A DNA stretch of 64,000 bases from a virus, in IMG/VR virus record IMGVR_UViG_3300019889_000007, positions 24,763 to 88,762 of that record, one strand, 5' to 3'. The notes under the pieces were generated by a model that searched no databases, was not told the DNA's origin, and worked only from the letters and a program-made list of their open reading frames with translations. Positions within the stretch are counted from its first letter, which is position 1. Every line of letters begins with the position of its first letter. This document shows positions 21,879-24,424 of this stretch, piece after piece. The position numbers and the translations under genes are program-made.

Positions 21879-22172
21879 TCATGGCCCAGCCTGACGCAGC
21901 ATCTGGGCGTACGTGTACTGCCCGATGCTGGCGGTACCTGAGGGACTGACGATCGTGATCCGGTAGGTGCTGTTCTCCACGCTGCCAGTCGAGTAGATGT
22001 CTTTGCGGATTACCCACGGGGGCGTATCGAGGTGGCACCCGCATTCCAGGACGTACCCGGTGATGACATCACCGGCCACCGTTTGCAGGCGCGTCGTGGT
22101 GGCCTGCGGAAACCAGTGCTGGTTCCCGCAGGCCACACACAACTGGCCACTGGAGCAGGTCAGAACGGCCAC
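21879..22172 (-). CDS. Small Cys-containing protein downstream of Ro60
   Basis: Overlaps the Ro60 stop; CVAC...ECGC. Confidence 0.45.
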   Translation of the reverse strand: MAVLTCSSGQLCVACGNQHWFPQATTTRLQTVAGDVITGYVLECGCHLDTPPWVIRKDIYSTGSVENSTYRITIVSPSGTASIGQYTYAQMLRQAGP

Positions 22173-23815
22173 ACGGCGTCCTTACCACTCTCCAGGGCCG
22201 GGATCATTCCGAAGGCCGCATCGGAAAGTCCACCGAAAACGTACCGGTTGGGCGTATCGGGTAGATGCCCGAACTTGTATCCGCCCAAGTTCCACGTGTA
22301 AATCGGGATGTTCGCGGGCACGACGTCGTCGATCTTCTTCGGGACGTCCATGACGACCCGGCCCATGTGGTCGAAACGTCGCCGCGTCTCGGCCCAGTAC
22401 CGGCTGGCCACACTCAACGCCTGAGTCCACCCCGGATTGGTCTGCTCATCGGTGATGATGACGACCCGGTCATGCTTGTCATAGGTCATGACCACCGCCA
22501 GCTGCGTATCGGTACCGCCCATGTTGCTGAACTTGCCCATCGTGCGCAGCACCGAGTCGCCACGGGTGAACGGGATACGTTGATGGGCCGTGCCGTACTG
22601 GTACAGGTCAGCCGCCTCGGCACGCAACGCGATCACCGACCCGAACAGGCTGGCTTTCTCGTTCAGACCGAGCTGCTTATGGTTGCCGCCGTAGCCGTAC
22701 GGGAACATCGAGCTGGACTGGTCCACAAGCACCAGGGTCCGGCCATCGAAAGCTGGCACGCTCGACACTGACACCGCCAGGGCTTTCTCCAGGTACTCGC
22801 CCCATCGCAGCGACCCGACGTTCTTGTGCGCCGAGTAGAACCGGAACGGCAGCTGCCGGGACCGTTTGATCTGATCGGCGCTGGCCAGGCGGTCCTGCAC
22901 CTGCCGGATCGCGGCATCGGGGAGTCCGGCCTTGTCGAAGTTCGCGAGGTTACGGATGAGCGCCATGATCCCCATCGACGGGATCGTGGCTTCCCACATT
23001 TTCTTTTGGCTCGCACCGATTTGCCCGGCCATGGAAATGGAGTCTTCCCACGTCAATCCGGCGTCTGCCAGTTTCGTCGACAGGGTTTGCACGGTGACGT
23101 TGTCGATGCCTTCGGCCAGGATCGCTTTACGGACGGCCCGGTTGGTCCACACCTGCCCCAGGATGCCCAACGGCACGGGAGTGTCAGGGTTGGACCGGTG
23201 CTTGGCAATGTACCGGAACAGGGACGACTGCTCTGCTGAGGCGGGTTTTGGGTGGACCAACGCGATGACGTCGGCGAACCGGAACGTGTTGTTCCGGGAG
23301 TCCCACTTCAAGAAGTTGAACTGCGTGTACAAGCGCCGGACGGCATCGGCGATACCGCGTTTGATCGGCTGCGGGATCTTGCGGCCGTACTTCGTTGTCC
23401 AGTACGCCAGGGCTTCAGCGGGCTCGTCAGCGCGCACTATCACCGAATCGATGAGCTTTCGGCCGCCCGGCAGGCCCGCGATCCGCATCGCGTCGGCCGC
23501 CTCCACCGCACCCACCAACGACGCCGAACGCATGTTGGCCTTATTGCGTAGCCACGGTAGGAACCGGGCGATCCACTCCGGGTCCACCACGGCCACGGCC
23601 TGAATCAGATGCCGGTACCGGTTGTCACGATGATCGGCCGCCTCATAGAACGCTTCGGTGGACACCATGTTCGACACGGCCAACAGAAACAGTTCAGATC
23701 GGGGGTCCCGCGAATAGGCGGGCGCGTTGTGGAAGTTACGGCCGTCGGCGACCGCCGATCCCCTGATCGGTGACTTCTGCCGGACGGCAGCGCTGGCGGT
23801 GTTGAACTTACCCAT
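22160..23815 (-). CDS. rsr: Ro60/Rsr TROVE-domain RNA-binding protein with vWA domain
   Basis: SELFLLAVSNMV..EAFYE, RADEPAEALAYW...KIPQPIKRG, MALIRNLANF, SRQLPFRFYSAH, MIDAS DQSSSM, GGTD, IITDEQ. Confidence 0.97.
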   Translation of the reverse strand: MGKFNTASAAVRQKSPIRGSAVADGRNFHNAPAYSRDPRSELFLLAVSNMVSTEAFYEAADHRDNRYRHLIQAVAVVDPEWIARFLPWLRNKANMRSASLVGAVEAADAMRIAGLPGGRKLIDSVIVRADEPAEALAYWTTKYGRKIPQPIKRGIADAVRRLYTQFNFLKWDSRNNTFRFADVIALVHPKPASAEQSSLFRYIAKHRSNPDTPVPLGILGQVWTNRAVRKAILAEGIDNVTVQTLSTKLADAGLTWEDSISMAGQIGASQKKMWEATIPSMGIMALIRNLANFDKAGLPDAAIRQVQDRLASADQIKRSRQLPFRFYSAHKNVGSLRWGEYLEKALAVSVSSVPAFDGRTLVLVDQSSSMFPYGYGGNHKQLGLNEKASLFGSVIALRAEAADLYQYGTAHQRIPFTRGDSVLRTMGKFSNMGGTDTQLAVVMTYDKHDRVVIITDEQTNPGWTQALSVASRYWAETRRRFDHMGRVVMDVPKKIDDVVPANIPIYTWNLGGYKFGHLPDTPNRYVFGGLSDAAFGMIPALESGKDAVWPF

Positions 23816-23855: not shown

Positions 23856-24007
23856 GCCGTCAGGGATCTGAGAAAAAATTGACCGGAGACACGAACCGCT
23901 CTGCCGCTGAGCTAACTGACGCTTACACGAAAGTCTTGGATTCGAACCAAGGACCTGTCTCTTGAAAGGAGAAGTAGCTCCGGTCGTCGCACCAGTGCCC
24001 TGACGGC
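23856..24007 (-). ncRNA. yrlA: YrlA-type Y RNA #1 (permuted tRNA mimic; Glu UUC-like loop)
   Basis: Terminal stem GCCGUCAGGG/CCCUGACGGC, GGUGCGA...UUCUC Ro-site region, UACUUC, T-arm CUUGG-UUCGAAU-CCAAG preceding D-arm UAGCUCAGCGGCAGAGC; adjacent to rsr. Confidence 0.9.
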
Positions 24008-24014
24008 ACAAGCC

Positions 24015-24173
24015 GCACATCCCGAGAAAAAAGTTGCCGGAGAACACGGTGGCTTTGGCCGCTCGCCCACACCGGCCTGTTACGGACCGGCGGCAGGATT
24101 CGAACCTACGAGACCTTTAGGGTCACCCATTTGTCAAGAATGAAGTAACTCCAGCTATCGCACCGGGATGTGC
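24015..24173 (-). ncRNA. yrlA: YrlA-type Y RNA #2 (Ser UGA class-II tRNA mimic)
   Basis: Terminal stem GCACAUCCCG/CGGGAUGUGC, GGUGCGA, UUACUUC, variable arm GACC-CUAAA-GGUC, T-arm GUAGG-UUCGAAU-CCUGC, closed acceptor-like stem, D-arm GGCGAGCGGCCAAAGCC. Confidence 0.9.
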
Positions 24174-24232
24174 AACACCGAACACCATACCCACACGGTT
24201 ACGTCTACGCCACGCATTTGCGTGAAGTGGAT

Positions 24233-24388
24233 GTCGCGCCCACCGAGAAAAGAGAATCGACCGGAGTTGAGAAACTTGCTAGCGGCCTGCCAATTAACCG
24301 ACAGTAGACTCGCGAAGGGTCTACCGGCAGGACTCGAACCTGCACAACCAACGGAAGTAACCCCAGCCTTCACACCGGCGAACACGAC
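24233..24388 (-). ncRNA. yrlA: YrlA-type Y RNA #3 (no anticodon-like arm)
   Basis: Terminal stem GUCGUGUUCGCCG/CGGUGGGCGCGAC, GGUGUGA, UUACUUC, T-arm GCAGG-UUCGAGU-CCUGC, closed stem CGGUAGAC/GUCUACUG, D-arm GGUUAAUUGGCAGGCC. Confidence 0.88.
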
Positions 24389-24395
24389 AACACTC

Positions 24396-24424
24396 ATAGT
24401 AGCCATGTCGTGTCTGCCTGTCAG
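24396..24424 (-). promoter_or_regulatory. Sigma70/HrdB-type promoter for the Y RNA-rsr operon
   Basis: CTGACA-N17-TACTAT, with 7 nt between the -10 box and the 5' G of Y RNA #3. Confidence 0.75.

What the first reader, a model, noticed from the sequence alone, without database searches (positions are those of the whole stretch)
23856..24007. Y RNA #1 displays a Glu(UUC)-like anticodon loop on a non-Glu body
Seen: hairpin UCUC-CUUUCAA-GAGA (loop at plus 23962-23968) has canonical C32-U33-UUC-A37-A38 geometry, at the same position as the Ser loop in RNA #2. Its D-arm (UAGCUCAGCGGCAGAGC) is a generic class-I type rather than the usual Glu type. GAGAC can alternatively pair with GUCUC after the D-arm, so two folds are possible. 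Inference: the anticodon-like loop is an exchangeable specificity module, so the array shows different anticodons.
Basis: partly seen in the sequence, partly recalled or inferred. Interest (0 to 1): 0.7.

Follow-up and report, generated by a model that had tools for sequence, protein, structure and literature searches.

The report
Phage Y RNA mimics an anticodon arm
The small RNA just upstream of this phage's Ro60 (rsr) gene is a YrlA-type Y RNA whose tRNA look-alike part includes a conserved copy of a tRNA anticodon stem-loop, although published work on the Salmonella RNA says YrlA lacks an anticodon loop; the "Glu" triplet it shows is probably one of many interchangeable triplets.

Summary
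On the minus strand, UCUC-CUUUCAA-GAGA (loop 23968-23962) lies between the Y-RNA handle UACUUC and a class-I variable loop plus T arm. The RNA is the rsr-proximal one of three YrlA-like RNAs.

In about 160 actinophage and actinobacterial rsr loci, the same hairpin recurs 9-10 nt before the T stem:
- 57 of 90 phage-set segments have it, against 9.5 expected from shuffles.
- The loop is almost always 7 nt: U33 95%, purine-37 93%, A38 93%. Positions 34/35 vary freely.
- Real tRNAs from the same loci give nearly the same figures.

Positions 42-43 covary with the two bases after the D arm, not with the invariant UU. The anticodon-like stem is therefore composite (2 + 3 bp), and the Ro60-binding stem branches out of it.

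Among 23 near-identical Streptomyces orthologs, positions 34 and 35 are the main variable sites in this segment (two variable-loop positions vary about as much). The triplet therefore changes by point substitution, and "Glu specificity" is unproven.

The hairpin was already drawn as the "V" arm of YrlA (Chen 2014). The anticodon-arm reading and its statistics were not found in the papers searched. No expression data exist. Earlier notes of this scan describe the two sister RNAs of this window, and Ro60/Y-RNA loci on other DNA, but not this feature.

The parts
23856..24007 (-). Y RNA #1, the rsr-proximal YrlA-type RNA. Its ends pair as GCCGUCAGGG...CCCUGACGGC.
   Evidence: Fold (z = -2.8). Rfam YrlA match over the full model at 23864-23996, 24.2 bits, below the 69-bit cut-off.
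23978..23996 (-). 5' strand of the Y stem. It holds the conserved GGUGCGA motif (the presumed Ro60-binding strand) and CCGGAG (23983-23978).
   Evidence: The motif is shared by all three window RNAs and by the homologs. CCGGAG pairs with CUCCGG at 23888-23883. The Y-stem columns covary (helix 1).
23971..23976 (-). Invariant handle UACUUC. UAC pairs with GUG at 23892-23890. UU is the junction linker. The C is the first base of the hairpin stem.
   Evidence: Invariant in 82/82 aligned RNAs. It corresponds to the conserved YUAY of Chen 2014.
23959..23971 (-). Anticodon-like hairpin: CUC (equivalent to positions 29-31), the 7-nt loop CUUUCAA (23968-23962, triplet UUC) and GAG (39-41).
   Evidence: The inner pairs covary across homologs (AU 45, CG 21, UA 9, GC 2; CG 36, GC 18, UA 8).
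23957..23958 (-). Positions 42-43 (A, C). They pair with U28 and G27 at 23895-23896 and form the top 2 bp of the composite anticodon-like stem.
   Evidence: helix 3: 95.7% paired, with GC 39, AU 24, CG 10, UA 3 at one pair and GC 67, CG 10, AU 2 at the other.
23952..23956 (-). Class-I variable loop AGGUC (44-48). C48 can form the Levitt pair with G15.
   Evidence: NGGUY recurs at this place in homologs.
23935..23951 (-). T arm: CUUGG-UUCGAAU-CCAAG.
   Evidence: helix 4, 100% paired.
23915..23934 (-). Closed acceptor-like hairpin. It is 7 'pairs' long with two central mismatches and is capped by UGUAAG.
   Evidence: In homologs the matching 7-bp helix covaries strongly.
23898..23914 (-). U8-A9 followed by the D arm GCUC-AGCGGCA-GAGC.
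   Evidence: helix 5, 99.4% paired.
23883..23897 (-). G26, then G27-U28 (pairing with C43-A42), the linker UC, GUG (pairing with UAC), U, and CUCCGG (the 3' strand of the Y stem).
22160..23815 (-). rsr / Ro60 homolog (TROVE domain, 551 aa), directly downstream of RNA #1.
   Evidence: Pfam TROVE at 2.6e-15. PHROG 850, RNA-binding protein, at 3.4e-42. 37-50% identical to the 'Ro-like RNA binding protein' of actinophages.
24015..24176 (-). Y RNA #2, of the same type. It has the loop CUUGACA, a long class-II variable arm and a Ser-type D arm.
24235..24386 (-). Y RNA #3, of the classical type without a loop. Its 5-bp anticodon-like stem GUUGG:CUAGC is made with the strand after the D arm.
   Evidence: plus my reading of the sequence.

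Best explanation
RNA #1 is the rsr-proximal YrlA-type Y RNA of an actinophage. Its ends form the Ro60-binding stem. Its other half is a circularly permuted, closed tRNA mimic that keeps a whole anticodon arm, unlike the solved Salmonella YrlA.

The arm is composite. Two base pairs (27:43 and 28:42) are made with the strand that leaves the D arm. Three base pairs and the 7-nt loop are made by the strand that enters from the Y stem. The Y stem therefore branches off between positions 28 and 29 of an otherwise tRNA-sized 5-bp stem.

The loop keeps what a tRNA anticodon loop needs for its U-turn shape and for recognition of position 37: pyrimidine-32, U33, purine-37 and A38, with position 36 coupled to position 37. 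Positions 34/35 are free. The UUC triplet is one state of a fast-changing pair of positions and is not evidence of Glu identity.

Inferred function, not shown: the Ro60-bound RNA presents a full tRNA shape, anticodon loop included, to a tRNA-binding partner. The most likely partners are enzymes or nucleases that read the anticodon loop. The RNA would then act as a competitor for them, or as a tether to Ro60 and its exonuclease.
For: Locus and family:
- TROVE/Ro60 gene directly downstream.
- Full-length though sub-threshold Rfam YrlA match, in which the hairpin is an insertion.

Hairpin:
- 57/90 segments have it, against 9.5 in shuffles. Loop composition: C32 68%, U33 95%, R37 93%, A38 93%, and all four bases at 34/35.
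- Of 176 unique segments, 98 have a 7-nt loop and only a handful of apparently homologous hairpins have 6 or 8 nt.
- 235 real tRNAs of the same loci give C32 69%, U33 95%, R37 97% and A38 74%, with the same coupling of positions 36 and 37.

Composite stem, on a MAFFT alignment of 82 RNAs that was not fitted to any structure:
- 27:43 and 28:42 are 95.7% paired with compensatory changes.
- The invariant UU cannot explain the cases with C at position 42 or 43.

Geometry:
- 5 nt plus a 4-5 nt NGGUY variable loop precede the T stem.
- RNA #2 carries both this hairpin and a separate long variable arm, so the hairpin is not the variable arm.

Triplet:
- 23 Streptomyces orthologs differ mainly at positions 34 and 35: CAU 9, GAU 8, CUU 5, CCU 1.

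Function idea:
- Hughes 2020 already proposed that the YrlA tRNA-like domain may compete with an anticodon nuclease.
- Phage rsr genes sit in tRNA arrays, and in one phage next to an RNA ligase gene.
Against: - No transcript, probing, modification or binding data exist for this RNA, and no RNA run holds it.
- Single-sequence folding does not prefer the hairpin. RNAalifold predicts neither the 3-bp hairpin nor the 2-bp helix.
- The sequences used for the hairpin pair counts were chosen because they can form it. Only the enrichment test and the 27:43 / 28:42 pairs are free of that bias.
- The homologs are related, so conservation partly reflects descent.
- The in-silico permutation test with ARAGORN (82/82 called tRNA, RNA #1 called tRNA-Glu(ttc)) is weak, because 76/82 were still called after the hairpin was shuffled.
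- The proposed partner is pure inference.
Confidence: 0.62

Rival explanations
1. The loop is an exchangeable specificity module, and each Y RNA of an array displays a chosen anticodon (here Glu UUC). The triplet would aim the RNP at, or decoy it for, a triplet-specific factor such as an anticodon nuclease or a modification enzyme.
For: - Flanking loop positions are conserved while 34/35 vary.
- No triplet is repeated in the 10 loci that carry two such RNAs.
- The setting is phage tRNA arrays and the known conflict between phage tRNAs and anticodon nucleases.
Against: - Variation is by single substitutions on unchanged bodies and is no greater than at two variable-loop positions, so neutral drift is enough to explain it.
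- With about 25 triplets in use, ten arrays without a repeat is expected by chance.
- Body type and triplet do not go together. Glu-type bodies carry CUC, UUC, GCU, CCA and CAA, and RNA #1 has UUC on a generic body.
Confidence: 0.18
2. The hairpin is just the 'V' (variable-arm-like) stem-loop already drawn for YrlA. It would be a stabilising element or a relic of the tRNA(s) from which YrlA arose, with no present anticodon-loop function. The Y stem itself would take the anticodon-stem position, as in the Salmonella crystal structure.
For: - Chen 2014 model it this way.
- In the Salmonella structure the Y stem continues the anticodon stem.
- The dimeric-tRNA origin model predicts a leftover anticodon arm at exactly this place.
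- Loopless RNAs such as RNA #3 coexist in the same arrays.
Against: - A complete 4-5 nt class-I variable loop follows the hairpin, and RNA #2 has a separate long variable arm.
- Loop length and U33, R37 and A38 are kept across Rsr proteins only 37-50% identical while the stem covaries. A relic would not be kept in this way.
Confidence: 0.17
3. Two-state switch. GAGAC (39-43) alternates between the hairpin and GUCUC downstream of the D arm.
For: The complementarity exists in RNA #1.
Against: - Across 82 homologs these columns are 54.9% paired.
- They overlap the covarying Y-stem strand CUCCGG.
Confidence: 0.02
4. A permuted but functional tRNA-Glu gene that is processed into a decoding tRNA.
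For: After in-silico permutation ARAGORN calls it tRNA-Glu(ttc).
Against: - The acceptor-like stem is closed and has two mismatches.
- The Y stem interrupts the anticodon stem.
- The D arm and the 5-nt variable loop lack the Glu hallmarks seen in Glu-type relatives.
- The ARAGORN control is weak.
Confidence: 0.01

Closest known systems
Mycobacterium smegmatis YrlA (Chen et al. 2014, PMC4201824)
   Same: - An actinobacterial Y RNA encoded 5' of rsr and bound by Rsr.
- A permuted T arm, closed 7-bp acceptor-like stem and D arm.
- The published 5' probe, read as its reverse complement, implies the same hairpin CA[CUUCUAA]UG followed by a UGGUC variable loop.
   Different: - The hairpin was labelled a 'V' stem-loop, not an anticodon arm.
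- The RNA is chromosomal, not from a phage.
- Its acceptor-like stem is cut by RNase P and receives CCA, whereas RNA #1 has two mismatches in that stem.
- The triplet is UCU, not UUC.
Salmonella Typhimurium YrlA (Rfam RF02553; structure in bioRxiv 10.1101/312249)
   Same: - The same overall plan: a Ro60-binding stem plus a permuted tRNA-like L shape.
- The conserved YUAY element.
- tRNA tertiary pairs are possible.
   Different: - It is stated to lack the anticodon loop. The Y stem simply continues a kinked anticodon stem.
- RNA #1 has a 13-nt hairpin inserted there and scores only 24.2 bits against the 69-bit cut-off.
Deinococcus radiodurans Yrn1
   Same: A Y RNA with a T arm and a possible 'anticodon arm' with a 5-bp stem.
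   Different: - The tRNA-like part has the opposite orientation.
- The loop is 6 nt.
- There is no variable arm and no clear D arm. It is thought to have evolved independently.
Thermus phage phiLo Ro60 with Yrl1/Yrl2 (PMC12135203)
   Same: A phage-encoded Ro60 with Y-like RNAs upstream. A complex with the host PNPase was shown.
   Different: - In the passages read, the Yrl RNAs were identified by a CGAA motif and predicted folding; no tRNA-like or anticodon-like feature is mentioned there.
- The protein is only about 27% identical.
tRNA anticodon stem-loop; other tRNA mimics with an anticodon-domain mimic (TYMV TLS, tmRNA-SmpB)
   Same: - A 7-nt loop with U33, R37 and A38, and a stem 5 bp long in total.
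- The same distance to the variable loop and T arm. The statistics match real tRNAs of the same loci.
   Different: - The stem is built from three strands, with a helix branching off.
- There is no free acceptor end.
- No decoding or charging is expected.

Membership tests
YrlA-type bacterial/phage Y RNA | Encoded next to an rsr/Ro60 (TROVE) gene | tested here: met
   The RNA ends 41 nt upstream of the rsr start at 23815.
YrlA-type bacterial/phage Y RNA | The 5' and 3' ends form a long stem carrying a conserved 5'-strand motif thought to bind Ro60 | tested here: met
   The stem is folded. A GGUGCG(A/C) motif is shared with about 200 homologs. Y-stem columns covary at 8 of 12 pairs. Binding itself was not tested.
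YrlA-type bacterial/phage Y RNA | Permuted tRNA-like domain in the order T arm, closed acceptor-like hairpin, D arm | tested here: met
YrlA-type bacterial/phage Y RNA | Reaches the Rfam RF02553 gathering score | tested here: not met
   24.2 bits against 69. Confirmed phage relatives also score 30-44 bits, so the model under-covers this branch.
YrlA-type bacterial/phage Y RNA | Bound by Rsr in cells; carries tRNA-type modifications | not testable with these tools
   No RNA data are available.
tRNA anticodon arm (mimicry, not membership) | 7-nt loop with U33 and purine-37 | tested here: met
   RNA #1 reads C-U-UUC-A-A. Homologs show U33 in 54/57 and R37 in 53/57. Loop length is 7 nt in 98 of the unique segments that have a hairpin.
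tRNA anticodon arm (mimicry, not membership) | 5-bp stem placed between position 26 and the variable loop | tested here: met
   The stem is a composite of 2 + 3 bp. Pairs 27:43 and 28:42 covary. The variable loop follows directly. Coaxial stacking of the two parts is inferred.
tRNA-Glu | Glu-type body: D arm GUCYAG.GGCCYAGGAC (U11:A24, U13:G22) and a 4-nt variable loop. This is the form seen in Glu-type Y-RNA relatives, and it matches what I know of the E. coli GluRS identity set. | tested here: not met
   RNA #1 has GCUC/GAGC and a 5-nt AGGUC loop. Its D arm is identical to that of a Streptomyces chromosomal YrlA that carries a CUU loop (L105).
tRNA-Glu | Free 5' end and 3'-CCA acceptor end | tested here: not met
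   The acceptor-like stem is closed by a loop and has two mismatches.

The most novel reading that the evidence does not exclude
Most actinobacterial and actinophage YrlA RNAs display a true anticodon stem-loop on a Ro60-bound scaffold. Its positions 34/35 would be kept variable by an arms race. The RNAs would act as triplet-specific decoys, or as cleavage sensors, for anticodon-loop nucleases of toxin-antitoxin and anti-phage systems, or as sponges for position-37 modification enzymes. Phage arrays such as this one (UGA, UUC and a loopless copy) would then be a counter-defence set. That would finally assign an effector to the tRNA-like domain of bacterial Y RNAs.
Probability: 0.15. Interest if true: 0.85.

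Novelty: new member of a known kind. Interest (0 to 1): 0.58.

Why it matters
The partner and purpose of the tRNA-like half of bacterial Y RNAs have been open since 2014. The published structural picture comes from Salmonella YrlA, which has no anticodon loop.

Here the commoner actinobacterial and phage form keeps a loop with the same U33, R37 and A38 statistics, and the same coupling of positions 36 and 37, as real tRNAs. To my knowledge, U36-A37 and G36-G37 are the signals read by the t6A and m1G37 enzymes. This narrows the search to factors that read anticodon loops.

It also gives direct tests: map t6A or m1G at position 37, try anticodon nucleases, and swap the triplet.

There is a practical consequence as well. 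tRNA finders mislabel these RNAs. Thirty ARAGORN calls in the sampled loci contain the Y-RNA handle, and one deposited annotation, 'tRNA-Arg(cct)' of Streptomyces phage GiJojo, lies on such a Y RNA.

Tried and rejected
- Rfam at gathering thresholds found nothing in the window. Only a permissive search showed YrlA.
- blastn of the RNA array against the phage collection found no match.
- A single-protein scan of IMG/VR found no relative. An alignment query was needed.
- In-silico permutation followed by ARAGORN is not discriminating, because the shuffled-hairpin control was still called in 76/82 cases.
- I considered arguing that G37 after Gln- or His-like triplets proves drift. I rejected this because real Gln and His tRNAs of these loci also have G37.
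- The absence of a repeated triplet within arrays is uninformative at n = 10.
- Sequencing runs: no RNA holder is listed, only soil-metagenome DNA runs that may be the source of this contig. I did not lay reads.
- Two reviews (PMC6047535, PMC10870794) are not held, so I cannot exclude that the anticodon-like reading is mentioned there.
- PHROGs and Pfam gave no function for the genes downstream of rsr.

Full report
**What is in the window**

The window is part of an 88.8-kb IMG/VR virus record. On the minus strand a 551-aa TROVE/Ro60 homolog lies at 22160-23815 (Pfam 2.6e-15; PHROG 850). It is 37-50% identical to the 'Ro-like RNA binding protein' of Streptomyces, Gordonia and Arthrobacter phages.

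Three RNAs precede it on the same strand, downstream of a promoter-like site at 24424-24396 (a consensus match only). All three match Rfam YrlA over the full model but well below the 69-bit cut-off, at 24.2, 14.8 and 18.1 bits. Nothing reaches gathering score. ARAGORN calls RNA #2 a tRNA-Ser(tga).

**Check of the observation**

RNA #1 (24007-23856) reads as follows on the minus strand:
- Y-stem 5' strand
- UACUUC (23976-23971)
- UC
- loop CUUUCAA (23968-23962)
- GAGAC
- AGGUC
- T arm (23951-23935)
- closed acceptor-like hairpin (23934-23915)
- UA
- D arm GCUC-AGCGGCA-GAGC (23912-23898)
- G, GU, UC, GUG, U, CUCCGG
- Y-stem 3' strand

Folding RNA #1 alone is ambiguous: the MFE prefers another small hairpin, while the centroid keeps CUC/GAG with the 7-nt loop.

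**Homologs**

I collected four annotated phage loci, 80 IMG/VR loci and 80 actinobacterial chromosomal rsr loci. All carry arrays of Y RNAs with an invariant UACUUC handle. A pattern scan (UACUUC, then a T arm) found about 135 phage and 114 bacterial RNAs with a tRNA-like domain.

There are two architectures.
- Type I, which includes window RNA #3. The 5 nt before the variable loop pair with the 5 nt after the D arm. There is no loop, as in Salmonella YrlA.
- Type II, which includes window RNAs #1 and #2. A hairpin with a 7-nt loop sits there instead.

**Is the hairpin real and anticodon-like?**

- Of 90 phage-set segments of 17-22 nt, 57 have a stem of at least 3 bp and a 7-nt loop exactly 9-10 nt before the T stem. 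Shuffles give a mean of 9.5 and a maximum of 19.
- Over 176 unique phage and bacterial segments, 98 have the 7-nt loop. Only a handful of apparently homologous hairpins have 6- or 8-nt loops.
- Loop composition: C32 39/57 (pyrimidine 47/57), U33 54/57, purine-37 53/57, A38 53/57. Positions 34 and 35 use all four bases.
- Positions 36-38 read UAA (30), GGA (12) or CAA (5, including RNA #1).
- 235 genuine tRNAs predicted in the same loci give C32 69%, U33 95%, R37 97% and A38 74%. Position 36 is coupled to 37 in the same way: U36 with A37 in 74/77, G36 with G37 in 47/60.

**Structure**

I aligned 82 non-redundant type II RNAs with MAFFT, without fitting to any structure (A2). Pair counts were:
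- T arm: 100% paired.
- D arm: 99.4% paired.
- Y stem: 8 of 12 pairs show compensatory changes.
- Inner hairpin pairs: AU 45, CG 21, UA 9, GC 2 at one pair; CG 36, GC 18, UA 8 at the other. These sequences were selected for being able to form the hairpin.
- Positions 43 and 42 with the two bases following N26 after the D arm: GC 67, CG 10, AU 2 and GC 39, AU 24, CG 10, UA 3, which is 95.7% paired. This helix was not a selection criterion. My own parse gave the same result, with shifted-register controls at chance level.

Extending the hairpin with the invariant UU of UACUUC is compatible in 83-88% of sequences. It fails exactly where position 42 or 43 is C, as in RNA #1.

The best model is therefore a composite 5-bp anticodon-like stem. 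Two pairs are made with the strand after the D arm (in RNA #1, G27:C43 and U28:A42). Three pairs are made with the strand entering from the Y stem (C-U-C with G-A-G). The Y stem (UAC:GUG, then CCGGAG:CUCCGG) branches off between positions 28 and 29. Coaxial stacking of the two parts is my inference.

RNAalifold recovers the Y stem, the T arm, the D arm and a strongly covarying 7-bp acceptor-like stem. It does not recover these two short helices.

**Why the hairpin is not simply a variable arm**

Chen et al. [quoted passage not shown] The structure paper states that YrlA 'lacks the anticodon loop'.

Here a complete class-I variable loop (NGGUY, 4-5 nt) follows the hairpin. RNA #2 has both the hairpin and a separate long GACC-CUAAA-GGUC arm, together with a Ser-type D arm.

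The reverse complement of the published M. smegmatis YrlA-5' probe implies CA[CUUCUAA]UG followed by UGGUC. The experimentally validated RNA is therefore of this type. The hairpin is thus known. The anticodon-arm reading and its statistics were not found in any held paper that mentions YrlA. Two reviews could not be read.

**The triplet and the body**

RNA #1's D arm has the stem GCUC/GAGC. It is identical to the D arm of a Streptomyces chromosomal YrlA that carries a CUU loop (L105). Its variable loop has 5 nt.

Relatives with a Glu-type body (GUCYAG.GGCCYAGGAC and a 4-nt NRAC variable loop) exist. They carry CUC, UUC, GCU, CCA or CAA. Body and triplet are therefore not linked, and 'non-Glu body' is correct.

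In 23 Streptomyces orthologs with almost identical bodies, positions 34 and 35 vary (CAU 9, GAU 8, CUU 5, CCU 1). So do two variable-loop positions, and the stem varies slightly in a compensated way. The change is by single substitutions, not by exchange of a module. This rate is no higher than at two variable-loop positions, so neutral drift cannot be excluded.

Arrays never repeat a triplet, but with n = 10 this carries no weight.

**Function**

Nothing has been measured for this RNA, and no RNA run holds it.

Established knowledge:
- Y RNAs tether Ro60 to PNPase.
- The Salmonella rsr-yrlBA-rtcBA operon is switched on by tRNAs cut in the anticodon loop. Its authors suggested that YrlA may compete with that nuclease.
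- Phage tRNAs can evade anticodon nucleases.

In relatives, rsr sits inside tRNA arrays, and in one phage beside an RNA ligase gene.

My preferred mechanism is that the Ro60-bound RNA presents a full tRNA shape, anticodon loop included, to a protein that reads anticodon loops. It would act as a competitor or as a tether. This is inferred.

From my own knowledge, not a tool result: the UAA and GGA endings match the U36-A37 and G36-G37 signals used by the t6A and m1G37 enzymes. That makes modification mapping the cheapest decisive test.

**Verdict**

- The anticodon-arm reading is supported and extends to about half of the sampled actinobacterial and phage Y RNAs that have a tRNA-like domain.
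- The proposed second fold is rejected and replaced by a composite stem.
- 'Specificity module' is unproven.
- RNA #1 is a new member of the known YrlA kind. The property it shows is under-described and makes the question of the effector testable.

Noticed in passing
window 24084-24167 (-); L006:2269-2343; loci L006-L169: tRNA finders mislabel these Y RNAs. ARAGORN makes 30 'tRNA' calls that contain the UACUUC handle. They include window RNA #2, called tRNA-Ser(tga). The deposited 'tRNA-Arg(cct)', gene 29 of Streptomyces phage GiJojo, scores only 24.1 bits on Rfam tRNA and lies on a Y RNA.
   Followed up: partly
window 24015-24176 (-): RNA #2 looks like a permuted class-II (Ser-like) tRNA. It has the loop CUUGACA (UGA, but with C at position 37), a long variable arm GACC-CUAAA-GGUC and a GAGCGG-type D loop. 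CC after the D arm can pair with G42-G43, as in the composite model.
   Followed up: partly
window 24235-24386 (-): RNA #3 is the classical loopless type. GUUGG before a 4-nt variable loop pairs with CUAGC after the D arm.
   Followed up: partly
L008:1963-2373 (Gordonia phage Neville): The annotated small hypothetical CDSs gp88-gp90 overlap Y RNAs (YrlA match of 44.1 bits at 2254-2370). They are probably not genes.
   Followed up: no
L034 from about 2046; L074 from about 2165: These are Y RNAs whose tRNA-like part is not permuted. After UACUUC come a closed stem, a D arm, a short anticodon-like hairpin, a variable loop and a T arm.
   Followed up: no
L084 from about 2212: This type II Y RNA has a second T arm (GGGGUUCGAAUCCCC) inside its acceptor-like hairpin.
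   Followed up: no
alignment A2, columns 56-62 with 87-93: The acceptor-like stem is 7 bp with strong covariation in most homologs. That is the length that makes M. smegmatis YrlA an RNase P substrate. Window RNA #1 has two mismatches there.
   Followed up: partly
type I RNAs in many loci, e.g. L018:2333, L067:2022, L073:1994: A conserved ACAGGGAAC / GGAAAC motif follows UACUUC in a subclass of loopless Y RNAs. Its role is unknown.
   Followed up: no
window 24396-24424 (-): A single sigma-70-like promoter match lies upstream of RNA #3. The three RNAs and rsr may form one transcription unit.
   Followed up: no
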